IMG/VR virus record: IMGVR_UViG_3300024259_000011
Direction: 5' to 3' (one strand)
DNA: 64,000 bases
Source: a virus
Lineage: Duplodnaviria; Caudoviricetes
Position 1 is the first letter of the stretch. Each line of letters opens with the position of its first letter. Made by a program: the position numbers and the translations under genes. Shown here in pieces: positions 8,517 to 30,849 of this stretch. Below the pieces are notes generated by a model, which did not search any database, was not told the DNA's origin, and saw nothing but the letters and a program-made list of their open reading frames with translations.

Positions 8517-8552
8517 CAAAAGCCCCCATCTGTATGACCAGATGGGGGCTTT
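8517..8552 (-). terminator. Intrinsic terminator after the major capsid gene
   Basis: 14-bp stem AAAGCCCCCATCTG / CAGATGGGGGCTTT with a 6-nt loop, ending in a T-run. Confidence 0.85.
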
Positions 8553-8576
8553 ATTACTTTGGAGGTTATGTTAGCT

Positions 8577-10328
8577 CTATGAGCTTGAACCTGACTCGCC
8601 GAGCAAGCCACGAACGACAACTAGACCGTACATATCAGGACGCACCATCTTCTTAGCGTAGCGTGTCATGACACCCTTGCGTGGCACGAAGTCCTCGACA
8701 CCAAAGATGGTGGGAGTGACTTGCAGTGGCACATAAGGTGCGTACACATATCCGCTTTCGAGGAAGCTTCCGCCCTTGCGTCCAACCAGAACAAGATTCC
8801 GTGGGAAGTAAGGATCAACATAAACGTCCCACTTCTTGGAAATACTTCCTGTTTGAACAGCACCGACAGTACCCTTGGAATCTTCCATGGATACCTTAGC
8901 ACGGAATCCACTGGTGAACTCAAGGATGTTGGCAACTTCTGGTCCGCAGACAAGGAAGTTAGCACCACCACGCAGAGTCTTGCGATGGATCTGGGCTGAA
9001 ATGTCATTGATGGTTTCGATCAGAGTCTCATACCATTCGCTGACTGTGCCCGTGAAGTCTGGAGCCTTAGTAGCGGCGCCGAGTTCGGCACCGGTGGTTC
9101 GCTTCACGAACAGACCCGGGGAGCGTGACCAGTAATAAGTACCGGCGGTTGCGCCCTTGATAAGATCTTCAACGATCTCACGGTCGATCTCAAGAGCAAT
9201 CTGCTCAGAGAGAATTGAGGTAAGCTCGACCTCGGCATCCAGATTGTGATAGGCATTTAGATCCTGTCCCAATTCTGGAGTCCACTTAGCCTTGAGCTTC
9301 TTGGTTACGGCAGTGACACTGACGGAATCAACTTTGATGTCGATCTCGGCAATACCCTCGTTTGCTTCCAGTCCCCAATCATCAGTTCCGACGACAGCGC
9401 CGAGAGCCTGATTAGAACCTGCAGCGGCAGTACCAGTGAAATCATCAACCAATGGGTGATAAATAATGGTAGATGCGTCACCGGCTCCAACACCAACAAC
9501 GCTGCTGAACGAGCCTGTAGCGTGGATAACAACTTCCAGAATAGATCCGGATGCCTTGGTGAGACGACGTACCGGTGTTGATCCAGAAGGATCAGACCGT
9601 GAGGCGCCATCGGCGCCAATATCGACGTTGAGAGCAACGGGGTTCTGGTTACTGCCGTCAAGACCCATCACCTGACGCTGGGCGTCGGTAAGGGTAATGT
9701 GCAGAACCTGCGCGTATGAACCTGATGCGAGATCAGGATCGAAACGAAGGTACTTATCAGTGCCGGCAGAATTGCCAACCATGAATACACCTTCACCGGA
9801 ATCCGCTACCGTCGTATAAGCAAGCGTGAGCGAGCCAGTCGGAGAAGAAGATCCGTTGTTTAGGGCGTAGAAAGATTTCTCGCCGTGACGACTTGTGCCG
9901 TCATCATCGACGGAAACACCGCCGGTGATCTCTTGACCCACCACATTGCCACCGTAAAGTGACTCGGCTGCTGCAGCGTTAAGCTTAGCATTCGTGTGTT
10001 GGAAGTCGAGGAAAAAGATAAGTCCACTTGGTAGACTCATCGGTTGAACTGACACTAGGTCGTTCGCGATGAGGGCACCGAATACGCGACGAACGATGGG
10101 GAATGCAACAGCGGCAAATCCTTCAACGTCACCACCAGCCATGGTGGATGCCTCACGAAGTAGTTCTCTAGCTTGGTTCTCAAGTAGTCGAGCCATGGTA
10201 TCACGCTTCCGACTATTCTCAAGACCTTCTAGAAGACCTGTGCGCTCCCACTTATCCATAAGTGCGGCGCCTTCCTTCGACACATCGCGAGTAACGATAC
10301 CTTCAGTCAATTTGTTAATAATAGACAT
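8577..10328 (-). CDS. gp23: Major capsid protein (T4 gp23-like, HK97 fold)
   Basis: FPIVRRVFGALIANDLVSVQPMSLPSGLIFFLD, KLKAKWTPELGQDLNAYHNLDAEVELTSILSEQIALEIDREI and GYVYAPYVPLQ...PRKGVMTRY are hallmark gp23 motifs; AAGGAG SD. Confidence 0.97.
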   Translation of the reverse strand: MSIINKLTEGIVTRDVSKEGAALMDKWERTGLLEGLENSRKRDTMARLLENQARELLREASTMAGGDVEGFAAVAFPIVRRVFGALIANDLVSVQPMSLPSGLIFFLDFQHTNAKLNAAAAESLYGGNVVGQEITGGVSVDDDGTSRHGEKSFYALNNGSSSPTGSLTLAYTTVADSGEGVFMVGNSAGTDKYLRFDPDLASGSYAQVLHITLTDAQRQVMGLDGSNQNPVALNVDIGADGASRSDPSGSTPVRRLTKASGSILEVVIHATGSFSSVVGVGAGDASTIIYHPLVDDFTGTAAAGSNQALGAVVGTDDWGLEANEGIAEIDIKVDSVSVTAVTKKLKAKWTPELGQDLNAYHNLDAEVELTSILSEQIALEIDREIVEDLIKGATAGTYYWSRSPGLFVKRTTGAELGAATKAPDFTGTVSEWYETLIETINDISAQIHRKTLRGGANFLVCGPEVANILEFTSGFRAKVSMEDSKGTVGAVQTGSISKKWDVYVDPYFPRNLVLVGRKGGSFLESGYVYAPYVPLQVTPTIFGVEDFVPRKGVMTRYAKKMVRPDMYGLVVVRGLLGESGSSS

Positions 10329-10354
10329 TGTATAAAATACTCCTTGTTTTTGTC

Positions 10355-11481: not shown

Positions 11482-14400
11482 CTATCCACAGTGATAGGTG
11501 CAAGGAACAAGCGCAGATTTGAACCCTAACTCAGAATCAACGTCAACGGTAGAAAAGTCAATCGGCGTCGTAGCCTTTGCAACAGTATAGTTATGTAACA
11601 AGTCATCATCTTGTAGCATGCCATGCCCAGCCCTATCGCTTGAGCAAATATAATCGCCAGTTTCAATGTTACCGTTTTGATCTGTGACAAGTACCTGACC
11701 TTCCCCGAGGGCATTATACACATGCTGGTCTTCGCCCATATAGGAATCTTCTGCAGGGACATTAAACCCGCGATAAACGCCAACTACAGCTTTATCTTTA
11801 GCAGCGGTTGTCACCTGAGTGGAAACCCATGCGTTGGACAAGCCGCCATCGAAAGCCAGTTGTCCCGTAGAGGCAATAATTACACCCTCTTGTAAGGCAG
11901 AGCCTGATGGAAGGGGTGTTGGATGCTGCCCTGTGAACGTGCTGTAAGCCACCTCTGAGTTAATCGTACCCACGGTGGCGCCGGTAGTTGAATCAAAAAA
12001 CTTAATCCAGTAGTTACTGACGCCGAACGTTGAGTCAGCAGAACGGATGTTAACAATAGTATCGGAGGTCGCCAGACTGGTATCGGTATTCGAGATACGC
12101 AACGTACCTTCGCTGCGTGCAATAGGATCTACAATGTGGAACTTGGCATCTGGCGACGTGGTGCCAACACCAACAAACGGGTATGCACTGTTTGCCACAG
12201 AGCCGTCAATACACAGACCGTCGTACAGGGATGTAGAGGCGTCACGACCGACTTGGAACCTCATTTTGGTGCCGAGAGAAGCGCCAATGTTCCAGTATGT
12301 CTCTGCAGTTTCGACAATCATCGTGGCTGCGAGGGCTGAGTTGGCTTCGCCGTCGTCTTCTGTACCATAGAAGCGCAGGGCACCAATATTATCGCCCGAT
12401 GCCATCGAGTCACCTCTACCATAGAAGTCAACACTAGACTGACCGGCATCTGATACAAGCTTGAGTTGGGCAGCGTCGGCGGTATGGATTGTAACGTCCG
12501 CAGTGATCTCAGCTAGATAATCGATGTTATCGTCGGTGCCGAAGGAAATCATGGTGTTGCCGACAGGATTCCTAATATTGCCGCCGCCTAAATATAGATC
12601 GCCATCAACCTTTAGATTTCCGCTCTCATAAATCGTGCCGCCGCCGGAACCAGAGCCTGCGAAGAAGTGTACTGCGTTTGTAGTTGTCTCATCCAGCGTC
12701 AGCATTGTGATGCCGCCACAAACAAGGTCAATCTGATCAGTGGTAAAGTTCATCCCTGTGTTTGTATCACCATTATGGGTGACACCGTTGGAGGCATAAA
12801 GTGTATTGGCGGTGATATCAGCGTTGGAGACTGTAACATCACCGTAGAAAGTCGCTTCTTTTGCAGAGTCGATCATGAGCGCTGTACTCAAAGATGTGGC
12901 ACCGTCTGCAGTTGTAAAGAACAATAACCTTCCCGCAGTACTGGAACCGTCAGACCATGACGCTTCATCAACTTCAGCCATAATACCGGCTGCGGGATAG
13001 TAAGTTCCATCCTCGGTTTCCGCGCCTTTGAACTGAATGATTCCCAAGTTGTCGCCATCGGCAAACGAACCGTCAGTATAACGTCGGAAATCCAGTTGCG
13101 CATCATCTGCAGAAGTTCCGTCGCGACTGGCAAGAATCAGTGTTCCCTGATCAGTGGTGCCGGGTCTAATAAGAATCGAACCTTCGCTGTGATCGTATGT
13201 AACGGTGTCTCCACCGAGATGAATGTCACCGGTGCCGCCATCAACTTTGAACGAGCCAGAAGCTACCGATGTCTCTACTCGGAAGTTTACGTCTGCTCCA
13301 GCTTCATTGAATGTTGCGTGACCGTTGGCGGTGATTCCGCCGGCAAGTGTAGAAGAACCTGAAACCTTGAGTAGACCAGATGTTCTGAACTCCGTAGATG
13401 TATAGTGATTGTCGGAACCGGACATGTCTGGTGTAGTACCATCAGACCATGCAACCTTCCCGCCGAGAGCATCCCATGAAAGGACTTGTCCATCGGTCGG
13501 AGTGTCGTCACCAATCTTAGTAACCTTTCCGTTCTTGCCCAAGGTGATCGCAGTGTCAGCACCAGCGCCATCATTAACCTGTAGGTTCACGGTGCCGGCA
13601 TTTGTGTCAACATTAAAGACAATGCCGGCGCCATCCATTGTCAGTGTGCCGCCGAGGTGGGCGCCGCCGAGAGCACTCAAAGTGCTTGAGGCTGAGAGAG
13701 TGGTGCTTGTGAGCCCTGCTTCATGGGCAGTAGCGCTAGTAAAGTTTGAAGGACCGCTGACCTCAAATGAGCCGGTAACTTGATGGGTGTCAGCGGGATT
13801 ATTTCCAAGAACCGCGTTGCCGGTAGCAGTGAGCAAACCATAAACAAAAAGCGGACCCTCTGCATTAACGACACTAGTGAAGTTTGAAGGACCGCTGACC
13901 TCAAATGAGCCTGTTACCTGATGGGTGTCACCGCTGGCGTTACCAAGGACCGCGCCGCCGGTAGCGGTGAGCAGACCGTCAATCTGGGCTGTGCTAGCAG
14001 CGGTCAAAGCACCATCAACGTTAAACGCAGCTTCGGCATGAACCTCATCTGTAAAGTGAGCAGGTCCGCTTACTTCAAGAGAGCCTGTTACCTGATGTGT
14101 ATCACCCGAAGCGGCGCCATGGATCGTGGCACCCTGAACAGTTAGGCTCTTCAAAGTCACCAATCCTGCAGAATTGATCTCTAGATCATTGACCGATTCA
14201 AACGCCGCATCAGTATTAATAGCAAAGACATCTCCGCTATCATCGATGCCCATGATGCTCTTAAGGGTGGAGTGTCCGAAGGTGATAGTTCTGTCTGTGC
14301 CATCGGCGTCGGCGCCAACAGTAATATCGCCGCCGCCAACAGATAAGGCGCCGCCTAAGGTTACTAATCCTGCAGCGTTGATCTCCAAGTCATTGACCGA

Positions 14401-16800
14401 TTCAAACGCCGCATCAGTATTAATAGCAAAGACATCTCCGCTATCGTCAACGCCTATAACACTCTTGAGAGTGGAGTGCCCAAAGGTGATAGTTCTGTCT
14501 GCGCCATCAGCATCACCGCCGATCACCGCGTTGCTGGTAGCAGTGAGCAAGCCATCAACGTTAAGCGCAGCTTCGGCATGAACCTCATCTGTAAAGTGAG
14601 CAGGTCCGCTTACTTCAAGAGAGCCTGTAACCTGATGTGTGTCCTCGGCGGTTGAACCAAGCACGCTTGAGCCAGAAGTGTTGAGCGCCCACGTATACAT
14701 GTGAGAGGTAAAGATGCTGCTCTGGGTATCGACACCGCCTGAACCGGTAATCGTATTATAGAATGTAACAACGTCTGTTGGTCCATTACCTAATCTTGCG
14801 TGCCCGTCTGCGCTGAAGATACCTTCTGCGTGAACTTCGCTAGAAAAGTGTGCTGGTCCGCTGACTTCAAATGAGCCTGTTACCTGATGGCTAGTAGCAC
14901 CAACATCGCCCAAGATGGTTGAACCTGAAACGTATAGATAACCGGAAGTCTCAAATCCTGTTGGCGAGTATATTCTTGGCGTAGCGCCATCACTGGAAGA
15001 AGCGTAGTTTGACCTGTCAACTGTGACGCCGTATGCGGTACCAGAGACATAAAGATCATTTGTATAAAGATGCTCGACCTTCACATCATGGGAAGCAGTC
15101 ATGCCGCCAGTGAGTGTGATTGCCGGTGTTGAGCCAGAGTTAGATATCGACAACGTAGTAAGACCGGGACGTGCTCCGTCACCGATGTTGTGGATGGAAA
15201 GGGAGCCAGAGAATTCAGCATTGTTGCCTACAAACTTGGCTGCATGAATCTCGCCTGAACCAGATACTGGTCCGAGAGTACCTGAAATGTGTACCATTTC
15301 TGCGGGACCGCTGCCTGATGCTGCAGCTTGAACATGGAAAACCTTATCGTTTGTGTCACCGTCTACAATGAAGTCAACGTCTGCGTTGCCGCTGTTGATC
15401 TTAACGAAGTCTTGGGTGCCGTCTTCGGTCATGTTGATCATTCTTACGTTACCGGCGCGAATGTCAATTGAATCGTCGGCGAAGATGATTTTAGTATCAG
15501 AGTCGCCGATGTGACTGATGGTAGCCGCGACGAGAAGTTCGCCAGAAACAACAGCGTCGGTGCTTACTTCAAGAGAGCCTGTGATTTCCACGGCGCCATC
15601 GCTGCCGATCTCGACGCGCTTGGAGAGGCTTGTGCTTCCGTCTGGAGTTGTCCAGAAACTGAGGTTTCCTGCCGCGCTGCTGCCATCAGTCCAAGCGGCT
15701 TCGTCAACTCGGGCGGCGATTGCTGCACCAGCATAATATGTTCCGGTTTCAGTCTCCGCGCCTCTGAAGTAGATTTCTCCTAAGTAATCACCTTCAGCAA
15801 GCGTGCCATCGGTGTAGTGTTGGAAGTCCATCTGCGGAGCGTCTGCCGCTGTGGTGTCGCGACTTTGAAGGACGAGCCTACCTTTATTAGATGTGCCCGG
15901 GCGGATACGAAGCACTCCGTCGCCGTCGAAGCTGAAAGCATCTCCTTGGATATGTACCATATCGGAACCGGCATCCACAAAAATCGAGCCCGTCTGGTTG
16001 TCACTCTCTACTCGGAAGTCTACGTCAGCGCCACCCTCGTTGAAGACGGTAATATCTTGTGAGCCATCTTCTGTGATTTTGATGAAGTCAACGCCGCCTG
16101 CTTGAATATTAATATCATCGGCTTGGAATCGAATGAATGTGTTTAGATCGCCTTGGTGGTAAATATATTCTGAAGCTTGAACGGCTGCTGAGAATACGGC
16201 AGTGTTGCTTACTTCAAATGAGCCTGTAATCTGGTGGGTCGTATTGGCGTCGGCACCTTTGATACTTGAACCGGATACACGCAAGTCATTGAGAATGGCT
16301 TTATTAACGTGGACATCGCCATCGCCGGTCACGTTGCCCCCAGCAGCATCAGCCGCACCGGTGATAGTATGGTGGAACGTCATGTAATCGCCAAAGCTGG
16401 ATGAGCTTTGAACGTGCAGCGCCTCAGAACCTGATATTTCGCGGGACACCCAGAGACTACCGCTTGTCATGTGCTGGTCGTCGTTTGAGTTACCGAAAGT
16501 CGTCGAGCCGGAATGGGCAATCTGCGTGGAGGTGATCTCTCGAATCGTATAGTTGTCCGCATAGATCGTACCGGACACGTATAAGGCACCGGTAACAGTG
16601 AGAACACTGCCGGAACCGGGACCACCTTGGTTTGTTAAATCGTTTGGTTGAAAAGTAAGGTCGTTAGAACCGGAGAACTTTCCCGGGATAAGACTGTCCG
16701 CGCCGTAGCGGAACTGTACTGAAGTCTCAGGACCATCGGCAGATGCGGATGCGCGCTGTGGGTCGATATACGCCCAGCCATAATCATCGGGTGGAGCCAC
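11482..16800 (-). CDS. Large repeat-rich fibre protein (1772 aa) with a putative C-terminal intramolecular chaperone domain
   Basis: GTG start with a GGGG SD; six HQ[IV]TGS[FL]EVS repeats and several duplicated modules; C-terminal FTGQH...ALGEGQVLV...GDYICSS...LHNYTVAKAT...CTYHCG domain. Confidence 0.75.
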   Translation of the reverse strand: MAPPDDYGWAYIDPQRASASADGPETSVQFRYGADSLIPGKFSGSNDLTFQPNDLTNQGGPGSGSVLTVTGALYVSGTIYADNYTIREITSTQIAHSGSTTFGNSNDDQHMTSGSLWVSREISGSEALHVQSSSSFGDYMTFHHTITGAADAAGGNVTGDGDVHVNKAILNDLRVSGSSIKGADANTTHQITGSFEVSNTAVFSAAVQASEYIYHQGDLNTFIRFQADDINIQAGGVDFIKITEDGSQDITVFNEGGADVDFRVESDNQTGSIFVDAGSDMVHIQGDAFSFDGDGVLRIRPGTSNKGRLVLQSRDTTAADAPQMDFQHYTDGTLAEGDYLGEIYFRGAETETGTYYAGAAIAARVDEAAWTDGSSAAGNLSFWTTPDGSTSLSKRVEIGSDGAVEITGSLEVSTDAVVSGELLVAATISHIGDSDTKIIFADDSIDIRAGNVRMINMTEDGTQDFVKINSGNADVDFIVDGDTNDKVFHVQAAASGSGPAEMVHISGTLGPVSGSGEIHAAKFVGNNAEFSGSLSIHNIGDGARPGLTTLSISNSGSTPAITLTGGMTASHDVKVEHLYTNDLYVSGTAYGVTVDRSNYASSSDGATPRIYSPTGFETSGYLYVSGSTILGDVGATSHQVTGSFEVSGPAHFSSEVHAEGIFSADGHARLGNGPTDVVTFYNTITGSGGVDTQSSIFTSHMYTWALNTSGSSVLGSTAEDTHQVTGSLEVSGPAHFTDEVHAEAALNVDGLLTATSNAVIGGDADGADRTITFGHSTLKSVIGVDDSGDVFAINTDAAFESVNDLEINAAGLVTLGGALSVGGGDITVGADADGTDRTITFGHSTLKSIMGIDDSGDVFAINTDAAFESVNDLEINSAGLVTLKSLTVQGATIHGAASGDTHQVTGSLEVSGPAHFTDEVHAEAAFNVDGALTAASTAQIDGLLTATGGAVLGNASGDTHQVTGSFEVSGPSNFTSVVNAEGPLFVYGLLTATGNAVLGNNPADTHQVTGSFEVSGPSNFTSATAHEAGLTSTTLSASSTLSALGGAHLGGTLTMDGAGIVFNVDTNAGTVNLQVNDGAGADTAITLGKNGKVTKIGDDTPTDGQVLSWDALGGKVAWSDGTTPDMSGSDNHYTSTEFRTSGLLKVSGSSTLAGGITANGHATFNEAGADVNFRVETSVASGSFKVDGGTGDIHLGGDTVTYDHSEGSILIRPGTTDQGTLILASRDGTSADDAQLDFRRYTDGSFADGDNLGIIQFKGAETEDGTYYPAAGIMAEVDEASWSDGSSTAGRLLFFTTADGATSLSTALMIDSAKEATFYGDVTVSNADITANTLYASNGVTHNGDTNTGMNFTTDQIDLVCGGITMLTLDETTTNAVHFFAGSGSGGGTIYESGNLKVDGDLYLGGGNIRNPVGNTMISFGTDDNIDYLAEITADVTIHTADAAQLKLVSDAGQSSVDFYGRGDSMASGDNIGALRFYGTEDDGEANSALAATMIVETAETYWNIGASLGTKMRFQVGRDASTSLYDGLCIDGSVANSAYPFVGVGTTSPDAKFHIVDPIARSEGTLRISNTDTSLATSDTIVNIRSADSTFGVSNYWIKFFDSTTGATVGTINSEVAYSTFTGQHPTPLPSGSALQEGVIIASTGQLAFDGGLSNAWVSTQVTTAAKDKAVVGVYRGFNVPAEDSYMGEDQHVYNALGEGQVLVTDQNGNIETGDYICSSDRAGHGMLQDDDLLHNYTVAKATTPIDFSTVDVDSELGFKSALVPCTYHCG
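13742..13911. repeat. 32-bp exact direct repeat (13742-13773 / 13880-13911)
   Basis: AAGTTTGAAGGACCGCTGACCTCAAATGAGCC twice, 138 nt (46 codons) apart. Confidence 0.9.
14012..14640. repeat. 89-bp direct repeat with 2 mismatches (14012-14100 / 14552-14640)
   Basis: Copies are 540 nt (180 codons) apart and encode DTHQVTGSLEVSGPAHFTDEVHAEAA[FL]NVDG. Confidence 0.9.
14186..14445. repeat. 56-bp exact core (14186-14241 / 14390-14445) of a tandem 68-codon duplication
   Basis: Encodes DSGDVFAINTDAAFESVND twice, 204 nt apart. Confidence 0.9.
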
Positions 16801-17167
16801 TAGTGTTTCCCCCCTTCGCTCTCTGTCGGCGTAACTTGCTTTGGCGCTTGAGGCGAGCTTCTTTCTTACGCTCTGCCTTCTTCCTTAGCCTTTCAGCCTC
16901 GCGGATAGAGGCGGCACGTTTAATTCTTTTCGCTTCGGAGGGTTTCGTATAATATTGTCTTTCGCGGATCTCTTCAACAATGCGTTCTTTTTTACACTTG
17001 CGTATAAATCTCTTGATTGCTTTTTCGATTGGTTCGTTTTTTCGAGGCACAACAGTAACGTTCGCCTGCACGGGCGGACCCGGCGCATACTCTCGCTCTC
17101 GTTGGCGATTATTATTACGTCTCCGACCATTGTTTTTATTGTAATTGTTGTTTCTACGAAACGCCAT
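16784..17167 (-). CDS. rpsU: Phage-encoded ribosomal protein bS21 with basic N- and C-terminal extensions
   Basis: Core VTVVPRKNEPIEKAIKRFIRKCKKERIVEEIRERQYYTKPSEAKR matches the bS21 pattern (E.IE.A.KRF.RK......E.R.R.YY.KPS). 127 aa versus about 60-70 aa for typical bS21. Confidence 0.88.
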   Translation of the reverse strand: MAFRRNNNYNKNNGRRRNNNRQREREYAPGPPVQANVTVVPRKNEPIEKAIKRFIRKCKKERIVEEIRERQYYTKPSEAKRIKRAASIREAERLRKKAERKKEARLKRQSKLRRQRAKGGNTSGSTR

Positions 17168-17178
17168 CTGTGTACCTA

Positions 17179-17634
17179 CTATGCATCAGTGCCGGCAGGT
17201 GCCTCAGTCAAACCAGAGCCGGTTAGAGCATACATTCTGCCAACTGGAATTCCCGTGAGTTCTGCGAACACCCTATAATGTGCCGTACTGCTTCCCGGGT
17301 TAGAAACATAAATCTCAGTACACTTGCAGTTTAATTCTAGGACCGCTTGTGAACCAGATACTGGGTGAACCTCAAGCATGTGTTGACCGCCATAGCCGCT
17401 AGCCAAGCCGCCGGCGACATCGCCAGCAGAACCGGTAGAGTTGAAATGCACGTTCAATGTTTGTGCCGAGTAATTGTAAATTGTAACTTTTTTTGCAACC
17501 CACGGAAACTGATAACATACCTCGTTATCTGCTGGGTGCGAGTCTGAGCCTGAAACCCAAGGATCACCGGAGACTCTGTATGAGCCAACGTTGTGAAGTC
17601 CTACTCCGTAGTTGAATGAGCTATTGTCTGCCAT
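17179..17634 (-). CDS. Hypothetical, probably virion beta-rich protein (151 aa)
   Basis: ORF with AGGA SD and a late-motif variant just upstream; no recognised family. Confidence 0.75.
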   Translation of the reverse strand: MADNSSFNYGVGLHNVGSYRVSGDPWVSGSDSHPADNEVCYQFPWVAKKVTIYNYSAQTLNVHFNSTGSAGDVAGGLASGYGGQHMLEVHPVSGSQAVLELNCKCTEIYVSNPGSSTAHYRVFAELTGIPVGRMYALTGSGLTEAPAGTDA

Positions 17635-18471: not shown

Positions 18472-19080
18472 TTACTCCTCAACGATTTCATTTAATAAGC
18501 GGTTAATCTTGTCCGCTTTAGTAAGAATGTTTGGTTCTTCATAACTCTTGCCTTCACTTAGTCCCATGAAGGCGTCGGGAGTTGAGGGCTCTGATACAAA
18601 GTCAAAGCAGATTAATTGAAAATCATCTTCGACCATGGTGCGCCCTTGCGACTCACTGACCGAACCCAGCCCGCGAGAAGAAATCCCCAACTTGACACCA
18701 TCATTAACAAGCTCTCGTAAGATCTTGCCCGATGGTGTACCTAAAATTTTGACCTTTCCCATAACCGAAGGTCCGTCCCACCACACATCAGTGACCATGT
18801 GGGAGGCGTTCTTAAGGTTAATAACAGAATCCTCAGGGTGGTCTAGTTCCCCAAGGGCTCTTTTCTCTTTTACCAACTTCTGGTAATTCTTCATCTCTCT
18901 TTCTAGGATTCTCCTAGGATAGACACGTCCATTACCATTCTGAACATCTGCTTCTTGCAGCTTGCCAGAGAGCATCATACCGCCATTTCCGATATAGATC
19001 TTCTCCTCTTCCGTCAGGAGATCCTGACAGACGCCGCCTTCGCATAGTTCATAATATTCTCGTAAAAGTATTTTCTTCAT
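18472..19080 (-). CDS. gp21: Prohead maturation protease (T4 gp21-like)
   Basis: NGNGRVYP, ALGELDHP, GISSRGLGS and FDFVSEPS motifs (His/Ser/Asp catalytic residues). Confidence 0.93.
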   Translation of the reverse strand: MKKILLREYYELCEGGVCQDLLTEEEKIYIGNGGMMLSGKLQEADVQNGNGRVYPRRILEREMKNYQKLVKEKRALGELDHPEDSVINLKNASHMVTDVWWDGPSVMGKVKILGTPSGKILRELVNDGVKLGISSRGLGSVSESQGRTMVEDDFQLICFDFVSEPSTPDAFMGLSEGKSYEEPNILTKADKINRLLNEIVEE

Positions 19081-19101
19081 AATATTTCTCTAATAAGGTG
19101 A

Positions 19102-19118
19102 CGGGCGTTACCCGCCCG
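19102..19118 (-). other. GC-rich hairpin CGGGCG-GGTAA-CGCCCG directly after the peptide's TGA
   Basis: 6-bp perfect stem, extendable by TGA/TCA pairing across a 2-nt bulge; no U-tract, so not a classic terminator. Confidence 0.6.
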
Positions 19119-19120
19119 AT

Positions 19121-19189
19121 TCAGCAGCCCTTCTTGCAGTTACGCACTGGCTGAAGCATCCACTTCGCTGTCCAGATATCTGTATCCAT
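19121..19189 (-). CDS. Unannotated 22-aa Cys-containing peptide MDTDIWTAKWMLQPVRNCKKGC
   Basis: ATG overlaps the upstream stop (TAATG); AGGGAG SD 5 nt upstream; fills the gap between two genes; ends in TGA at the base of a hairpin. Below the ORF-track size cut-off. Confidence 0.6.
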   Translation of the reverse strand: MDTDIWTAKWMLQPVRNCKKGC

Positions 19190-19491
19190 TATTGCTCCCT
19201 TCCTATTTGTATGCCATTGTCGCCAAACATCGTACTTAGGATGTATGATGTGGCGGATGAGACACAGCCGCAAATAAGTAAATTAGCAACCGTATACTCA
19301 AACGTAAATAGTTCTGTATTGTAGTTAACGCCATACAAAAATACACCAACCCAGAAGCCAACACACATGGGGCAATGAAATAAATCGCCCCAGAATCCAA
19401 CTAAGGGTCTTACTCGATCAAAAATCTTGCCATAAACGATAATCTGGGTCATCCCATATGCCGCTAGGCAAAACCAAAGTAACTGATACAT
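19189..19491 (-). CDS. Small membrane protein with a CPxC motif (DUF1360-like)
   Basis: Hydrophobic helices flanking GDLFHCPMCVGFWVG; GAGG SD. Confidence 0.6.
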   Translation of the reverse strand: MYQLLWFCLAAYGMTQIIVYGKIFDRVRPLVGFWGDLFHCPMCVGFWVGVFLYGVNYNTELFTFEYTVANLLICGCVSSATSYILSTMFGDNGIQIGREQ

Positions 19492-20076: not shown

Positions 20077-20891
20077 TAGCTGTTAATCTCCGCTGCTAGT
20101 TCTTGAATCTTCATGATTTGCATGAGCATATCACGGTCGATCTGGCGTTGTGAAAAGCCGTTCAAGGTTGCCATGACCTTATTTGTCTTGGCAAGCATTT
20201 TGGTGTCGCCGGAGATCTCATTAAGTGAGCGTGAGTCGCCCACAACATTCTTAAGCCTAGCTAACTCTTCGTTCAAGAACATCTTAAGCGCAACACCATT
20301 GTCAGAGAACGAAACAATGTATGCGCTCAGCAGATTGTTCTGCTCAACGCGCAATGTTTGCGAATACTGATCATTAAACTTCTTCACGAAGGTCTGATAA
20401 ACAATATTATCAATTGGTTTTGTATTCTCAGTCAGTGCTTCGACTGAAGAATTCATTTTGCTCAGAACCTTGTTCTCTAAGAGGGTACGCCTCTTGATAG
20501 TGGTTCTTGTATCAAAGATCTGTGCGATAGTCGCAAGGTCTTTGTAGTTAGGCACAAACGTAGTAAACGTGTCCTTGCCCAGTTCTCTGTTGATGGTGCC
20601 AATAAGCTGCGACTGCTGCTCAAACGCCTCTTCTTGATTCAAAGCGCTGTAAACTCGCTTGACTTCCAAAAGAAGCTTCTCTGCAGTCATCTCATTGACA
20701 TCCGTAGTCTCGTATAGGGTTCTGTAGAGTTCAAGTTCAAGCCCCAGAGTTGTATCACGCCTAAAGAACTCTTTCATGATGGATACTATCTTTCGTTTCC
20801 GAACAACATCCTTGTTCACTACGCTGATGGTTAATTCTCTCACTAACGTTTCATATAAAAACGCTGTATTTCTTTTTTTGTTATGCTTCAT
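20076..20891 (-). CDS. Hypothetical helical head-module protein (MKHNKKRNTAFLYE..., 271 aa)
   Basis: Start reassigned from 20924 to the ATG at 20891, which has a GGAG SD and overlaps the portal stop by 11 nt. Confidence 0.8.
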   Translation of the reverse strand: MKHNKKRNTAFLYETLVRELTISVVNKDVVRKRKIVSIMKEFFRRDTTLGLELELYRTLYETTDVNEMTAEKLLLEVKRVYSALNQEEAFEQQSQLIGTINRELGKDTFTTFVPNYKDLATIAQIFDTRTTIKRRTLLENKVLSKMNSSVEALTENTKPIDNIVYQTFVKKFNDQYSQTLRVEQNNLLSAYIVSFSDNGVALKMFLNEELARLKNVVGDSRSLNEISGDTKMLAKTNKVMATLNGFSQRQIDRDMLMQIMKIQELAAEINS

Positions 20892-22854
20892 TCTTTTTTG
20901 ACTCCAATCTCTGCAAGCTCTCAATCAAATGTTGAGTTTCGGAATGGCTGGCTTGAACTTTTCGTTCTTCGGTGTAATTAGGTTCGACATTCTCCGAAAG
21001 CCCATTTCCAAGTCGTGTCAGGTCACTCATTCCTTTAAAAATGTTTCTTGTTGAGTTGCTGGCAATCGACATACCCGAATCTGCATGGTAACTGCGCTTT
21101 CTTGCGCCGGCTCCACGGGAGTCACTAGCAACAGGGTAATATACCTTGCCCTTAGAGCCCGGTGTAACGTATCCTCCGTCATCACGGTGTCCCGGTGCCG
21201 CCAATAGCGCGGTTTCTTCTTCTTCACCGCCCATCTCTTCGCCACCTTCTTCACCGCCGAGGTCCATTTCCTCGCCTTCCATGTCGCCGCCAAGGTCACC
21301 GCCTAGATCACCTAAGCCGCCCTCTTCTCCGCCTAGTTCGCCGCCTAGTTCGCCACCAAGACCGCCGGCGGCGTCATCCTCAGCGGGAGGTTCGGCTGCA
21401 GCCTCAAGCATCGCCTGCATCTTCTTATCATAGAACATTTCACGCTGGTTACGCAAGAATTCTTCGTCAGACATGCCAAGTAAGTTCTCGGAGACCCAAC
21501 GCCGGCTGAAAAAGCCTTCGGTTGCCGCCGATGCAACATCAAACTTGGTCCTCCAGTGTTCTAGTTCTTGCAACTCCGCAATCTTGGATGGATTATTAAG
21601 CTGGAGCTTGAAAGAAATGAGGTCATCGCCCCTGAACCCTAATGTGAACAAGTGAATGATGCCAACTTTCTCCAACTCGGAGATCATAGAGCGCTGCAGC
21701 CGAGTGATGGTGCGCGCAAAGCGGATATCCTTCTGTGCTAAAGTCGTCTTGTCTTCCTCACCGCCTTCGCCGCGTGAAAGATAGGACATTGGAATCTTTA
21801 GAGCAGAGAATAGCTTATCACGTAGGTACTTAACATCATCAATATCGCCAGTGTACGTTCCACCGGGCAAAGACTCAACTCGACTAGACTCTTGACCGCG
21901 AACAGGGATGAAGTAGTCTTCATCAATGCTCATTGGGTTATACCGAAGGTCTACTCGACCGGTGGTGGGGTCAACAACTTGGTTTCTCTTCATCTGAGTC
22001 GTGACTTTCTGCATAAACTGTTCTACATCGTGCGGAGGGATGTTACCAACGTCAATATAGAACACTCGGCGCTCTGGAGAGCGCACAATTCGGTATGCCA
22101 TCATCGCATCTTCAAGCAAAGTAAGCTGGCGCCAGATTCGGCGGGCTCCTTCAAGCACTGAAGTGCCATATGGGGCGAACTTATCATTGCCAAGGATACG
22201 GAAGTGTGCAACCTGCCAGTTTTCAAAGGTTAATCCACCCGAGTTCCACTGGTATTGTACATAATTGGGGTTGGTCTTGTCTTCACCTTCCAATCTTTCA
22301 AGCTCTTCCAGTGGAATGCCCACGGCGTTCTTGATTCCATGTGTCTCATCGATGTCCAAGTATAAAAAGTAGTCACCGAACTTACACATTGTACGGCACC
22401 AACCAAAAAGGTTAGAGTCTAGGTTCAGGATCTTATGGTATAGGTTGTCCAACACAACTTTAATCTCGTCGTTGGAGCAATTAATCTTCAGCAAGGGGCT
22501 GAGGATTGTGGAGGTGGTCATCTCATCTGCATAAATATCTAAAGCAGATGCAATCTCGGGCATGTACTCCATCTGATCAAAGTCAAGATAGCGCTCTTGA
22601 CGATTTTGGTTTGCCATCACTTGGGCGCTGAGGTTGTCGTACGGGTTGTAGGACGTTCTCTTAAAGTTCAAGCCGCCGGCAGACGTAAAGTTGAACTTGT
22701 CTAGCTGTGCGCGCCGATAGCGCCGCTGCATTTGCACGCGGCGATTAACAATCGGACCAGAGAGCAATCGAGTCAGGCGCTTGAACAGCGGCGACTCTGG
22801 ATTACGTGGATTTTTCAAGTTTGGATTTGATTTTTTGGAGTTTTGTTGAGCCAT
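20881..22854 (-). CDS. gp20: Portal protein (T4 gp20-like)
   Basis: PEIASALDIYADE, LEDAMMAYRIVRSPERRVFYIDVGNIPP, EDYFIPVRG, LPGG...DIDDVKYLRDKLFSALKIP and KDIRFARTI motifs; GGAT SD. Confidence 0.96.
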   Translation of the reverse strand: MAQQNSKKSNPNLKNPRNPESPLFKRLTRLLSGPIVNRRVQMQRRYRRAQLDKFNFTSAGGLNFKRTSYNPYDNLSAQVMANQNRQERYLDFDQMEYMPEIASALDIYADEMTTSTILSPLLKINCSNDEIKVVLDNLYHKILNLDSNLFGWCRTMCKFGDYFLYLDIDETHGIKNAVGIPLEELERLEGEDKTNPNYVQYQWNSGGLTFENWQVAHFRILGNDKFAPYGTSVLEGARRIWRQLTLLEDAMMAYRIVRSPERRVFYIDVGNIPPHDVEQFMQKVTTQMKRNQVVDPTTGRVDLRYNPMSIDEDYFIPVRGQESSRVESLPGGTYTGDIDDVKYLRDKLFSALKIPMSYLSRGEGGEEDKTTLAQKDIRFARTITRLQRSMISELEKVGIIHLFTLGFRGDDLISFKLQLNNPSKIAELQELEHWRTKFDVASAATEGFFSRRWVSENLLGMSDEEFLRNQREMFYDKKMQAMLEAAAEPPAEDDAAGGLGGELGGELGGEEGGLGDLGGDLGGDMEGEEMDLGGEEGGEEMGGEEEETALLAAPGHRDDGGYVTPGSKGKVYYPVASDSRGAGARKRSYHADSGMSIASNSTRNIFKGMSDLTRLGNGLSENVEPNYTEERKVQASHSETQHLIESLQRLESKKNEA

Positions 22855-22857
22855 TTG

Positions 22858-24459
22858 TTATCCTTTATAAAGCCATTTGTATTCTTCGTGTTCTTTTCTG
22901 ACAGCTTCTGATTGACTTTGTTTCATTGTATCAAAAGTTCCGCCTTTTTTATAACCTATTTGACCTTGCATCTTAGTTTCTAGTTTTGAGCCTGTTTTAA
23001 TCATGGCGCCTAAGCATGCTTTCTTGTATTCAATATTGCGCGCATTGGCTACAAACGCGGTGTCTCGGACCCAGCATGCGATTGCCAACGACATAACAAG
23101 GTCATCGTTGTAGCCCCTCATAGCCTGAGGCTTCCCATTGTTCCAAATAAAAGTCTCAAGCTCGCGCAAAGTCCTGCTCGAATATATTGTAATTAGTTTA
23201 TTCCTGATAAACTCTTCCAATTTTGCGACGATCAATGGTCTTGTCTTCATGGAAGTTGTGAAACCGGGTACGGAGTTGGACATTCCTTCAGCGATGTGTT
23301 GCTCCACGTAGTCGTGCGTGGACTTCACGGAGTGATAAACATTCGGATAAGATTTGTCGATTAGTTTCTCTAAAACAGAAAAACCAACGTTATTGTTCTC
23401 AACGACAATCATGCAGTTGCCATACTCTCTGCCGGCAGAATCCAATATTGTTGCGAACATATCGAGGCTGGGCTTTCCCTGATACTCAGCTATGATTTCT
23501 AGCGTTTCGAGTTTAACTATGTGAAACACAGAATAGTCTGCGCCGTCGCCGCGTGCAACATCAGCAACCAGAACATACGAGGCGCCGGGAAGGTGTTCTT
23601 CCCAGATCCAGTAGTTCCTGTCGAACCCCGTTCTATGTTTCGGATCGGATACAGTGTCACGGATACGGGCAATGTCCTCCGGGTGGATTACCGTATCCCC
23701 GGAAGTATTAAAGTTGCACTCGAACTCTTGAGAGATTTCTCGACGAGACATGTTCCTTGTTTCTTTCTCAAACCATTCCTGATCTCGATCAGGGTGCAGA
23801 TCCCACATAAGCTTAATAGGATTAAAGTCGTTCTCTCCCGCCTCCGCGTTTACATACTTTGTATGGAACCAGTTACCAACACCGTTGGGGGTAGACAGCG
23901 AGATAACTCGCCCACCAGTTGAAATCGTAGGGTATAGACCCATCCACAGTTCATCCAAGCCGTCAATATGAGCAGCCTCATCCAGCACCAAAAGAGACAG
24001 CGCCTCAGAACGACCGGCATCGCCAGAGGTTGAAGACGCTTTAATCTGTGAGCCATTGGTTAGCTCAAATGACGTGCGGTTGTCTACTTCGATAGAGGAG
24101 ATCTGAATAAAGTCCGGAAGCCCTCTCATCATCGCCTTGACTTTCTTGACCAAGTTTGCGGCAGTGCCGAACTTAGTAGCCATAACTAGGACGTTCTTAT
24201 CACGGTGGAACAACATCATCCAAACGATGTAAGCCGCTACGATGGTAGAGATCCCCATCTGGCGGGCTTTAAGAATCACATTAAATCTGTGATCGTTGAA
24301 AGCTACCAGCAAGTCTTGCTGGAAGTCGTATGTAGCGAACGGAATAAGACCGTGAATAGGGTGAGAGATTCTGCAGTAATTGTCAATAAAATAAACTGGG
24401 TCTTTACCGCTTTTTAAAATCTCTTTTACGCTTTCCTCTTTCGATAGTTTAAAAGCCAT
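22858..24459 (-). CDS. gp17: Terminase large subunit (T4 gp17-like)
   Basis: Walker A region ILKARQMGIST, Walker B LLVLDEAAH, coupling motif STPNG, nuclease DVARGDGADYS and DDLVMSLAI. Confidence 0.96.
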   Translation of the reverse strand: MAFKLSKEESVKEILKSGKDPVYFIDNYCRISHPIHGLIPFATYDFQQDLLVAFNDHRFNVILKARQMGISTIVAAYIVWMMLFHRDKNVLVMATKFGTAANLVKKVKAMMRGLPDFIQISSIEVDNRTSFELTNGSQIKASSTSGDAGRSEALSLLVLDEAAHIDGLDELWMGLYPTISTGGRVISLSTPNGVGNWFHTKYVNAEAGENDFNPIKLMWDLHPDRDQEWFEKETRNMSRREISQEFECNFNTSGDTVIHPEDIARIRDTVSDPKHRTGFDRNYWIWEEHLPGASYVLVADVARGDGADYSVFHIVKLETLEIIAEYQGKPSLDMFATILDSAGREYGNCMIVVENNNVGFSVLEKLIDKSYPNVYHSVKSTHDYVEQHIAEGMSNSVPGFTTSMKTRPLIVAKLEEFIRNKLITIYSSRTLRELETFIWNNGKPQAMRGYNDDLVMSLAIACWVRDTAFVANARNIEYKKACLGAMIKTGSKLETKMQGQIGYKKGGTFDTMKQSQSEAVRKEHEEYKWLYKG

Positions 24460-29867: not shown

Positions 29868-30812
29868 TCAAATTCGGATAGAAGACAGGGCATCACTCAG
29901 AATGTATGAGCTATCTTCTATCCGTTTTGCTGCCGCTTTTCTAACAGCAAACTCTTCTCTTGTTATTGCGCCGACATCTTCGATATCGGCAGTATCAATC
30001 TTGTGTAGTTCCATATCGTACTGCAACAAGTTCTTGATGATTTTGTGTTCCTTATAGGTGGCATCCGAGTCCAGAGCCAAATAGACTTTTGGACCCTCCG
30101 ATATCAAACGGCTGAATACTTTAGTATAGTTGTTCAGCGTGGAGCCTAGAATCGGAATTGCATTTCCTGCAACGATTGCGTCAAACACTCCCTCGACCAG
30201 AACGATGTCATCGTCCCAATCAAGGTATAGTTCGTTAAAAACGATATCGCGACTGGCTTGCGGATTTTTATACCGCATCCAAGCGCCGTCGTACGAACGC
30301 GCAATAAAATAATTTACATAGCCCTCGGTGTCAAAGCTGGGAATGATAATCCTCCCCGCATATTCTCCCGATGGGCAGTAACCAATCTTCCACTCAAGAA
30401 TCTCTTTCTTACCAATACCTCGCGCCCTCAAATAGTTGACAGCGGGAAGTGTAGCCGGAGAAAGAGAATCCTTAGTGAGAGTTCGGAATTCATCTGGTAG
30501 GTTTACTCTTTGTATTATAACATCGTCGTCCTCGTTTGTTGAAAAAATATTGTCAAAATCACTAATGTCGTGGCGACCAGTGAGCTTATCCCACTCTGCC
30601 ACCATGCCATAGTTACCGAACTTACGAATCAGCCGCCGGACATTCTTGCCCTTAGCATCGCAAATCCAGCACTTATATACGTTCGCACTGACATTCACCG
30701 AAAGCTTGTGCTTGTGGTGCTTGCAGAACGGACAATAGAACAGCGTTTCGTTGCCGGCAGTGCGATACTCGCCGAGACAAGACGCAACAATTTTCAGCTT
30801 TTCCCTATGCAT
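29868..30812 (-). CDS. dnaG: DNA primase (DnaG/T4 gp61-like)
   Basis: Zinc-binding CPFC...KCWIC, RIIIP...YFIAR, TOPRIM VEGVFDAI and LALDSDA. Confidence 0.9.
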   Translation of the reverse strand: MHREKLKIVASCLGEYRTAGNETLFYCPFCKHHKHKLSVNVSANVYKCWICDAKGKNVRRLIRKFGNYGMVAEWDKLTGRHDISDFDNIFSTNEDDDVIIQRVNLPDEFRTLTKDSLSPATLPAVNYLRARGIGKKEILEWKIGYCPSGEYAGRIIIPSFDTEGYVNYFIARSYDGAWMRYKNPQASRDIVFNELYLDWDDDIVLVEGVFDAIVAGNAIPILGSTLNNYTKVFSRLISEGPKVYLALDSDATYKEHKIIKNLLQYDMELHKIDTADIEDVGAITREEFAVRKAAAKRIEDSSYILSDALSSIRI

Positions 30813-30820
30813 ACAACAGT

Positions 30821-30849
30821 AGTATACCGCGTACGGCGGCTGTTGTCAA
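30821..30849 (-). promoter_or_regulatory. Consensus sigma70 promoter TTGACA-N17-TATACT for primase and sbcD-sbcC
   Basis: -35 at 30844-30849 (includes the ruvC stop codon), -10 at 30821-30826, 17-nt spacer, 8 nt from the -10 to the primase ATG. Confidence 0.85.

What the first reader, a model, noticed from the sequence alone, without database searches (positions are those of the whole stretch)
16784..17167. Double-length phage bS21 with an Arg/Asn-rich N-tail and basic C-tail, in the late head operon
Phage bS21 genes next to structural genes are known. This one adds a 36-aa low-complexity N-extension (MAFRRNNNYNKNNGRRRNNNRQRERE...) and a ~30-aa Lys/Arg C-tail. bS21 contacts the anti-SD region of 16S rRNA, and in Bacteroidota host bS21 helps occlude it. 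Most late genes here carry strong GGAG(G) SDs, while the early primase has none. Inference: the phage protein replaces host bS21 and its tails bind rRNA or mRNA, biasing ribosomes toward SD-led late phage mRNAs.
Basis: partly seen in the sequence, partly recalled or inferred. Interest (0 to 1): 0.72.

Follow-up and report, generated by a model that had tools for sequence, protein, structure and literature searches.

The report
Phage bS21 with two basic tails
An uncultured marine T4-like phage carries, inside its head-gene operon, its own double-length copy of ribosomal protein bS21 with two conserved basic tails; this is a solid example of a kind of phage gene, and of a ribosome-hijacking idea, that are already published.

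Summary
ORF 16784-17167 (-) encodes a 127-aa bS21 (Pfam E=2.9e-15). It has a 37-aa Arg/Asn-rich N-extension and a 31-aa Lys/Arg C-tail, and it lies between the prohead protease and the gp23-type capsid gene.

Both tails are real. They are conserved in about 30 metagenomic relatives and under purifying selection (dN/dS about 0.2, core 0.08). However, the last ~11 codons double as the Shine-Dalgarno site and start of the downstream giant gene.

Similar basic N-extensions occur in about a dozen other bS21 clusters; every one examined sits in a T4-like head module.

This scan has noted extended phage bS21 in at least 39 other genomes.

The Bacteroidota angle is not supported. SD sites are used genome-wide (57% versus 38% of genes, background 10%), whereas a related Flavobacterium phage has almost none. 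The SD-less primase sits behind a conserved canonical sigma-70 promoter as a near-leaderless mRNA.

Ribosome incorporation, timing and tail function remain untested. Verdict: new member of a known kind, modest interest.

The parts
16784..17167 (-). Phage bS21 gene, 127 aa plus stop
   Evidence: ORF; PF01165, TIGR00030 and phrog_21469; identical in independent assemblies
17057..17167 (-). N-extension, residues 1-37 (Arg/Asn-rich, net +7, predicted disordered)
   Evidence: Conserved MAFRRNN...PGP motif; dN/dS 0.19; pLDDT 46-64
16880..17056 (-). bS21 core, residues 38-96
   Evidence: Pfam/TIGRFAM match; invariant I51 R53 F54 K59 I63 K75 P76 S77 R81; dN/dS 0.08
16817..16879 (-). Helical part of the C-tail, residues 97-117; continues the last core helix
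   Evidence: AF2 predicts one helix 76-117, with pLDDT 90-95 over the 81-110 blocks; the dN/dS of 0.21 was measured over residues 97-121
16787..16816 (-). C-tail end, residues 118-127 (KGGNTSGSTR), dual-coding with the next gene's start region
   Evidence: Codons AAG GGG GGA form the SD AAGGGGGG (dG -11.3), 7 nt before the GTG at 16800. The SD is kept in all 8 clade members even where the residues change (AKGG to ARRK in L010). pS is only 0.10 in the last 6 codons
17168..17178 (-). 11-nt gap between the upstream gene's stop and the bS21 ATG, with only a weak AGGT SD
   Evidence: sequence; dG -4.6; the same weak TAGGTA is present in relatives
17179..17634 (-). Conserved upstream neighbour 'Nb151' (151 aa, all-beta, unknown function)
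   Evidence: 40% identical homologue in the same position in the distant N-extended group. Adjacent to bS21 in 15/17 N-extended loci versus 6/62 short-form loci. Weak cupin-like fold
11482..16800 (-). Downstream giant repeat/fibre-like gene (1772 aa) whose start overlaps bS21 by 17 nt
   Evidence: 1041-2351 aa in relatives
18472..19080 (-). Prohead protease (Peptidase_S77)
20881..22854 (-). T4-type portal (gp20-like)
22858..24459 (-). Large terminase
8577..10328 (-). gp23-type major capsid protein
30821..30849 (-). Canonical sigma-70 promoter TTGACA-17-TATACT, 8 nt before the primase ATG
   Evidence: conserved in the relative G002 with a diverged spacer
29868..30812 (-). DnaG-like primase without SD (near-leaderless)

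Best explanation
This is a phage-encoded copy of bacterial small-subunit ribosomal protein bS21. It belongs to an abundant, uncultured marine T4-like myovirus with a genome of roughly 180 kb, extrapolated from a 141-kb relative judged 78% complete. The gene is packed into the head-morphogenesis operon, 11 nt after the previous gene, with the next gene starting inside it. It is therefore most likely made late, together with capsid proteins. Its conserved core (residues 38-96) would dock in the bS21 site on the host 30S platform. In E. coli that site is filled late in assembly, and Mizuno et al. class the ribosomal proteins that viruses tend to encode as easily exchangeable. The two positively charged tails would add RNA contacts. 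The C-tail prolongs the C-terminal helix, which in E. coli runs beside the SD/anti-SD duplex towards head helix h37. The disordered Arg/Asn-rich N-arm would emerge on the platform near the mRNA exit. The likely net effect is tighter binding than the host protein (competitive replacement), with a possible shift of initiation towards phage messages. Shown here: identity, conservation and purifying selection of both tails, operon context, and genome-wide SD use. Inferred: late timing, ribosome incorporation, and any effect of the tails.
For: Family membership is above the curated cut-offs. About 30 relatives of 122-127 aa keep both tails. dN/dS is 0.19 for the N-extension, 0.21 for the C-tail and 0.08 for the core, with frame-preserving indels and a conserved ATG. 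AF2 predicts a disordered N-arm and one long helix 76-117. Gene order is conserved in all related contigs. Pelagiphage bS21 is incorporated into E. coli 70S ribosomes (Mizuno 2019). The E. coli bS21 C-terminal helix lies beside the SD helix and reaches h37 (Watson 2020). Phage bS21 is transcribed with late structural genes in other clades (Chen 2022). Al-Shayeb 2020 made the same prediction for N-extended phage rpS21. The chloroplast bS21c extension spans the mRNA channel, showing that extended bS21s can work on ribosomes.
Against: There is no direct evidence that this protein is expressed or enters a ribosome. Ribosomes carrying the pelagiphage bS21 had only about 5% activity in vitro. No phage-specific leader signal was found apart from SDs, which an SD-using host would recognise anyway. 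The host is unknown. Part of the C-tail is explained by overlap with the next gene. The N-extended forms are not one clade on the core tree (AU p=0.006), so the extension may have several origins and several roles.
Confidence: 0.55

Rival explanations
1. Supply rather than selectivity. The phage simply keeps ribosomes stocked with bS21 once host gene expression is shut off, and the tails only stabilise binding. There is no preference for phage mRNAs.
For: Mizuno et al. describe the ribosomal proteins that viruses tend to encode as dynamic and easily exchangeable (abstract); bS21 binds late in 30S maturation; without it ribosomes cannot bind natural mRNAs. No phage-specific leader motif was found, and SDs are used genome-wide.
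Against: It does not explain why conserved tails under selection are needed, nor why the core is so far from any cellular bS21 (only one 50%-identity cluster scores better than E=1e-10).
Confidence: 0.15
2. Host shut-off. The phage bS21 enters host ribosomes and poisons initiation on host mRNAs; the tails block the mRNA exit or SD chamber.
For: E. coli ribosomes carrying the pelagiphage bS21 translated at about 5% of wild type. The long basic helix and N-arm would lie at the SD and mRNA-exit region.
Against: The gene sits with late genes, whose own heavy translation would also be hit. The 5% result may only reflect heterologous incompatibility, as its authors say.
Confidence: 0.1
3. The host is a Bacteroidota bacterium whose own bS21 hides the anti-SD. 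The phage bS21 lacks the occluding aromatic residue, frees the anti-SD, and switches ribosomes to SD-led late phage mRNAs.
For: There is no aromatic residue anywhere after Y73, so nothing at the position aligned to F. johnsoniae Tyr54. Structural genes are SD-rich, and three genes around the primase lack an SD. The nearest cultured MCP relatives include Flavobacterium and Rhodothermus phages. F. johnsoniae ribosomes lacking bS21 gain SD recognition (McNutt 2023 abstract). An earlier scan note describes such a case in a freshwater Bacteroidota phage (not tested here).
Against: A conserved canonical TTGACA-17-TATAnT promoter drives the SD-less primase, and further perfect sigma-70 promoters occur in the relative. 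Non-structural genes also use SDs (38-51% versus 10% background). The related Flavobacterium phage has 4-7% SD use and no bS21. The F. johnsoniae bS21 is the weakest of 24 solved matches.
Confidence: 0.08
4. Not ribosomal in this phage. The very basic protein is a prohead-core or internal head protein that binds packaged DNA, and may be injected with it.
For: The gene lies among prohead-core genes, between the protease and the MCP, co-oriented and tightly coupled. It has net charge +30 with arginine-rich arms. Chen 2022 found the prohead protease to be the commonest annotated gene family within ten genes of phage bS21 (310 of 900 genomes).
Against: The ribosome-binding core is the most strongly conserved part (dN/dS 0.08). 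I saw no T4-type [LI]-x-E protease site at the boundary of the N-extension (sequence). There are no virion proteomics. Incorporation of a phage bS21 into ribosomes has been shown.
Confidence: 0.05

Closest known systems
Huge-phage rpS21 with N-terminal extensions (Al-Shayeb et al. 2020, Nature, PMC7162821)
   Same: [quoted passage not shown] The proposed role is the same: substitute for host bS21, with the extension helping competitive binding or phage-mRNA initiation.
   Different: This phage is probably under 200 kb and marine. Its protein also has a long helical C-tail whose end overlaps the next gene. The one Al-Shayeb-type huge phage I could inspect (LR756508, second-best MCP hit) has a 79-aa bS21 with a canonical N-terminus.
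bS21-encoding freshwater Bacteroidetes myoviruses (Chen et al. 2022, ISME Commun, PMC9723584)
   Same: bS21 lies within a few genes of TerL, portal, prohead protease and MCP, and has a conserved co-evolving neighbour gene. Late expression and ribosome substitution are proposed.
   Different: [quoted passage not shown] Here it is co-oriented and coupled within the operon, has no aromatic residue after Y73, the genome is SD-rich and carries canonical sigma-70 promoters, and a search of that paper for 'extension' found nothing.
Pelagibacter phage HTVC008M bS21 (Mizuno et al. 2019, Nat Commun, PMC6375957)
   Same: A marine T4-like myovirus with its own bS21. It is the only phage bS21 shown experimentally to enter 70S ribosomes.
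   Different: [quoted passage not shown] The window's protein has no close cellular relative and carries two tails.
E. coli bS21 C-terminal helix and RLY motif (Watson et al. 2020, eLife, PMC7550191)
   Same: A basic C-terminal helix adjoins the SD/anti-SD helix, and phage homologues tend to mirror the host's C-terminal motif.
   Different: There is no RLY/KLY ending (it ends GSTR). The tail runs about 22 aa beyond the E. coli C-terminus, and its last ~11 aa are dual-coding.
Chloroplast bS21c (+66 aa; PMC5737520 and bioRxiv 10.64898/2026.07.03.736309)
   Same: A functional ribosomal bS21 about twice the bacterial length. Its flexible extension crosses the mRNA channel and contacts uS7c, a precedent for extended bS21 remodelling the mRNA exit and SD region.
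   Different: It is an organellar protein, and I have no evidence that its extension is related to the tails here (no chloroplast chain appeared among the matches). Contacts for the phage tails are unknown.

Membership tests
Ribosomal protein bS21 (PF01165 / TIGR00030) | Profile match above the curated cut-off | tested here: met
   PF01165 56.2 bits (cut-off 27); TIGR00030 46.1 bits (cut-off 28.95)
Ribosomal protein bS21 (PF01165 / TIGR00030) | Conserved core motifs (I-K-R-F...K-K and K-P-S) and a helix-helix architecture | tested here: met
   Invariant I51 R53 F54 K59 I63 K75 P76 S77 R81; helices 47-60, 63-71 and 76-117; aligns to 24 solved bS21 chains
Ribosomal protein bS21 (PF01165 / TIGR00030) | Binds the 30S platform as a ribosomal subunit protein | not testable with these tools
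   Supported only by analogy: HTVC008M bS21 enters E. coli 70S ribosomes
N-extended phage rpS21 (Al-Shayeb 2020) | [quoted passage not shown] | tested here: met
   37-aa extension with 9 K/R and F3, Y9, Y27, inside a T4-like head module; definition read
Bacteroidota-type bS21 (anti-SD sequestering; Jha 2021, Chen 2022) | Aromatic residue at the F. johnsoniae Tyr54 position, C-terminal to the KPS motif | tested here: not met
   7jil_z residues 3-56 align to query 39-89, so Tyr54 falls at about residue 87 (A-A-S-I-R). There is no F/Y/W/H after Y73
Gamma/Betaproteobacterial-type bS21 (Watson 2020) | C-terminal RLY or KLY motif | tested here: not met
   The protein ends ...GNTSGSTR
Chen 2022 bS21-phage clades | bS21 near TerL, portal, protease and MCP | tested here: met
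Chen 2022 bS21-phage clades | bS21 on the strand opposite the structural genes; Bacteroidetes host | tested here: not met
   Same strand as all neighbours. The host signals (SD use, sigma-70 promoters) are unlike a Bacteroidota phage control

The most novel reading that the evidence does not exclude
The head-operon bS21 is a prohead-core cargo. Its arginine-rich arms bind packaged DNA, the protein is injected with the genome, and it reprograms host ribosomes at the very start of the next infection. This would reconcile late synthesis with an early need.
Probability: 0.05. Interest if true: 0.8.

Novelty: new member of a known kind. Interest (0 to 1): 0.3.

Why it matters
Phage bS21 is the commonest virus-encoded ribosomal protein, yet what it does is still unproven. 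This clade is abundant: near-identical DNA appears in marine metagenomes from about 15 studies between 2012 and 2020. Both of its tails are demonstrably under selection, so it would be a good construct set (full length, N-tail deleted, C-tail deleted) for testing the published competitive-binding and mRNA-selection hypothesis. The analysis also carries two cautions. About a third of the apparent C-tail is shaped by an overlapping gene start. An SD-less early gene next to SD-rich late genes can be explained by a leaderless promoter arrangement, without any ribosome switch.

Tried and rejected
- **tblastn against deposited phages.** Neither the whole protein nor the core alone gave a match, even at E=1. 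The low-complexity filter probably masks this basic sequence, since a profile search did find a bS21 in LR756508. This is no evidence of absence.
- **Complex prediction of bS21 with its conserved neighbour Nb151.** No verdict.
- **Metatranscriptome run X20.** Its contigs lie on the MCP gene, the gene after it and near the protease. Nothing solid covers bS21, and contigs cannot show transcript ends. Expression of bS21 therefore remains unshown.
- **T4-type late promoter TATAAATA.** 3 matches against 1.4 expected, none near the operon.
- **Generic sigma-70 and terminator scan of the head region.** Not above shuffled expectation.
- **Bacteroidota promoter motif TTTG-N17-21-TAnnTTTG.** Not enriched in the window, and not enriched in the Flavobacterium phage control either, so the test is uninformative.
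- **Early versus late classification in the 141-kb relative.** The low-SD blocks hold a sugar-synthesis and glycosyltransferase island, PhoH and unknown genes. No DNA polymerase B family match was found, so only a coarse comparison of the structural half against the rest was possible.
- **Host phylum from bS21.** The genome-collection scan found only two weak gammaproteobacterial matches and one viral contig binned in an archaeal MAG. No named bS21 tree could be built.
- **Identity of Nb151.** No Pfam or PHROG family, no match in deposited phages, only viral hypothetical clusters in the Atlas, and a weak cupin-like fold.
- **Internal start removing the N-tail.** GTG33 and GTG40 exist in the window, but relatives have other residues at position 33 (R or P in five of the seven aligned clade members), and the N-extension evolves as protein. 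Rejected.
- **Single origin of all N-extended bS21.** Rejected by the AU test on the 59-column core (p=0.006, quick tree, group chosen after seeing the data). Synteny nevertheless links at least the L014 group to the window's lineage.
Full report
**What is there.** The ORF at 16784-17167 on the minus strand starts with ATG and encodes 127 aa. Residues 38-89 match Pfam Ribosomal_S21 (E=2.9e-15, 56.2 bits against a cut-off of 27). The protein also matches TIGR00030 (E=3.2e-12) and PHROG 21469 'ribosomal protein S21'. Thirty-seven residues precede the domain, with 10 Asn, 8 Arg and net charge +7. Thirty-one follow it, with 13 Lys/Arg and net charge +11. The whole protein has net charge +30 and pI 11.6. 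Compared with E. coli bS21 (71 aa) it is about 35 aa longer at the N-terminus and about 22 aa longer at the C-terminus (alignment). Two independent public assemblies cover the gene with no differences. Every neighbouring gene is on the same strand. The order is large terminase, T4-type portal, S77 prohead protease, three small genes, bS21, a 1772-aa repeat protein, a 341-aa gene, then a gp23-type major capsid protein.

**Are the tails real protein?** A search of 5.8 billion proteins found about 30 metagenomic relatives of 122-127 aa at 63-90% identity. All carry MAFRRNN...RRR...PGP..Q(A/S)NVTVV at the N-terminus and ...KRQSKLRRMRAKGG..GSTR at the C-terminus. In an exhaustive search of 1.84 billion representatives the clade collapses to one 50%-identity cluster, the only hit better than E=1e-10. 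Codon alignments of eight clade members give dN/dS of 0.19 for the N-extension, 0.08 for the core and 0.21 for C-tail residues 97-121. The indels preserve the frame and the ATG is conserved. The in-frame GTG at codon 33 is not conserved in relatives. AlphaFold2 with the clade alignment predicts a disordered N-arm (residues 1-46, pLDDT about 46-64), helices 47-60 and 63-71, and one long helix 76-117 with pLDDT 90-95 over most of its length. The C-tail is therefore a prolongation of the last core helix.

**Part of the C-tail is a by-product of gene overlap.** The next gene starts inside bS21, at the GTG at 16800, giving a 17-nt overlap. Its strong SD (AAGGGGGG, dG -11.3 kcal/mol) is spelled by bS21 codons 118-120 (K-G-G). 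All eight clade members keep a 14-20 nt overlap and a strong SD. In L010 the residues change from AKGG to ARRK, yet the SD (AGGAGG) remains. Synonymous change in the last six codons is strongly suppressed: pS is 0.10 there against 0.5-0.7 elsewhere. The distant N-extended relatives lack the long C-tail and have a 54-63 nt gap before the next gene. So roughly the last 11 of the 31 tail residues may be constrained by the neighbour's start region and not by bS21 function.

**How common is this?**
- Among the best 80 of 245 viral-contig relatives, 12 belong to the window's clade and have both tails.
- A second group (L014-L016 and L018, about 40% identity) has a 36-42 aa Lys/Asn/Arg-rich N-extension, mostly beginning MAY(K/N)R, and only a 5-8 aa C-tail.
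- Two loci have 18-20 aa extensions, and most of the rest are canonical 64-82 aa proteins.
- Among 150 representative clusters, about a dozen have genuine basic N-extensions beginning M-[AS]-[YF]-x-R-[ND]. Many other 'long' entries are simply mis-called starts.
- A few relatives instead carry 70-98 aa Arg/Asn-rich repeats (NRGPNRN) at the C-terminus.
- Every N-extended form I examined lies in a T4-like head module. It usually follows directly after a homologue of the window's 151-aa upstream gene, which I call Nb151. Nb151 is adjacent in 15 of 17 N-extended loci against 6 of 62 short-form loci, though these counts are not phylogenetically independent.
- On a tree of the 59-residue core, the extension is clustered (12 state changes against 22.8 for shuffled labels). 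A single origin is nevertheless rejected (AU p=0.006). The window's clade is monophyletic (SH-aLRT 94) and its nearest neighbours are short forms. The alignment is short and the group was chosen after seeing the data, so this result is weak.

**What is already known.**
- An earlier scan note pointed me to Al-Shayeb et al. 2020, and I checked the paper. [quoted passage not shown] - Chen et al. 2022 described bS21 among TerL, portal, protease and MCP genes, with late-stage expression and a co-evolving neighbour gene.
- Mizuno et al. 2019 showed that a pelagiphage bS21 enters E. coli 70S ribosomes, which then translate at about 5% of wild type.
- Watson et al. 2020 showed that the E. coli bS21 C-terminal helix lies beside the SD helix and reaches h37, and that phage homologues mirror host C-terminal motifs.
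- Chloroplast bS21c is a functional bS21 with a 66-aa extension that spans the mRNA channel.

This scan has itself noted extended phage bS21 in at least 39 other genomes.

**Host and the SD argument.** The SD claim is true for the window. 64% of 39 genes reach dG <= -6 kcal/mol against the anti-SD and 72% carry an SD motif of 4 nt or more, against 9% and 13% for background. Two relatives give 58-71% and 79-83%. A related cultured Bacteroidota phage, Flavobacterium phage immuto, has an MCP 44% identical but gives only 7% and 4%, and it has no bS21.

The primase-like gene has no SD because a perfect TTGACA-17-TATACT promoter ends 8 nt before its ATG. In the 141-kb relative G002, the hexamers (TTGACA, TATAGT), the 17-nt spacing and the 8-nt distance are all kept while the spacer sequence has diverged. 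Three further matches to the TTGACA-N16-18-TAWAMT pattern lie on the coding strand, two of them with a perfect TATAAT -10 box. From general knowledge this is the canonical sigma-70 type and not the Bacteroidota type.

In G002, SD use is 57% in the structural half and 38% in the rest (Fisher p=0.07), with a background of 10%. SDs are thus used genome-wide and are somewhat stronger on structural genes, so there is no on/off class switch. The bS21 core is most like proteobacterial bS21 (E about 1e-8 to 1e-9) and least like the F. johnsoniae protein (E=3e-4). It has no aromatic residue after Y73, so it has no Tyr54 equivalent, and it has no RLY/KLY ending. I read this as an SD-using, sigma-70-canonical host of unknown phylum. 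The Bacteroidota 'unmasking' version is left at about 8%.

**Most likely mechanism (confidence 0.55).** The protein is made late with the head proteins. This is inferred from the 11-nt upstream gap, the downstream overlap, the conserved gene order, and Chen's metatranscriptomes of other clades. Its core docks in the bS21 site on the 30S platform, inferred by homology and from Mizuno's experiment. The tails add RNA contacts. The extended helix would run along or beyond the SD duplex towards the head, and the disordered N-arm would lie near the mRNA exit. Together they would give tighter binding than the host protein and possibly favour phage messages. All of this is inference, and it matches the published prediction.

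The rivals are simple supply of bS21 (0.15), host shut-off by poisoning initiation (0.10), Bacteroidota anti-SD unmasking (0.08), and a packaged internal head protein (0.05).

**Verdict.** This is a well-supported, conserved, two-tailed phage bS21 in an abundant marine phage lineage, and a new member of a known kind. Four things are new here:
- evidence of purifying selection on both tails;
- the dual-coding end of the C-tail;
- the conserved Nb151-bS21 gene pair;
- evidence that the SD-rich/SD-less contrast in this window needs no ribosome switch.

Noticed in passing
L088 / L091 (contig PBHR01000019.1, G001:C19): A 19-kb contig encoding an 80%-identical two-tailed bS21 is binned in a marine 'Methanobacteriota archaeon SP3024' MAG. 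It is the only bS21 match in that 1.8-Mb genome. It is most likely a mis-binned phage contig, since archaea have no bS21.
   Followed up: partly
window 30821-30849 (-) and G002 41069-41110: A perfect sigma-70 promoter sits 8 nt before the primase ATG, giving a near-leaderless mRNA. It is conserved in a relative despite a diverged spacer. A second match at 32306-32333 lies inside the 431-aa gene.
   Followed up: yes
window 17179-17634 (-): Nb151 is a 151-aa all-beta protein of unknown family that accompanies N-extended bS21 across divergent phages. It has only a weak cupin/jelly-roll fold resemblance (TM 0.38-0.48). It may be analogous to the 'bS21_CN' neighbour of Chen 2022, but no sequence was available to compare.
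   Followed up: partly
L023 (3001-3198 match), P0061, P0136: Other viral bS21 proteins of 140-170 aa carry 70-98 aa C-terminal tails of NRGPNRN-like Arg/Asn repeats. The same composition as the window's N-arm thus occurs at the other end of the protein.
   Followed up: no
G002 (L101-L102), about 88-106 kb of the 141-kb relative: A sugar-modification island: a DegT-type aminotransferase, a HAD-nucleotidyltransferase fusion, a GT2-sulfotransferase fusion, GT1/GT4 glycosyltransferases and a GT10 fucosyltransferase-like gene, followed by a PIN-PhoH gene.
   Followed up: partly
window 26704-29856 (-): A single 1050-aa ORF matches both the SbcD-like (N-terminal) and SbcC-like (C-terminal) PHROG families, so it is a fused Mre11-Rad50-type nuclease/ATPase. 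The fusion is conserved in relatives (1050-1053 aa).
   Followed up: no
window 11482-16800 (-) versus L001 and L004: The gene after bS21 varies from 1041 to 2351 aa among close relatives, while everything around it is collinear. It is a hypervariable repeat/fibre-like protein sitting in the middle of the head module.
   Followed up: no
L106 1489-1728 (LR756508.1, 484-kb huge phage): This huge phage, the second-best MCP match, has a 79-aa bS21 about 2 kb upstream of its MCP on the same strand. It has a canonical N-terminus and an aromatic-rich C-end (W, YYY).
   Followed up: partly
window 8544-11018 and 18989-19353: A marine metatranscriptome (run X20) holds contigs 95-100% identical to the MCP gene, the start of the 341-aa gene and the region before the protease. 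This is consistent with active infection by this phage or a close relative in that sample.
   Followed up: partly
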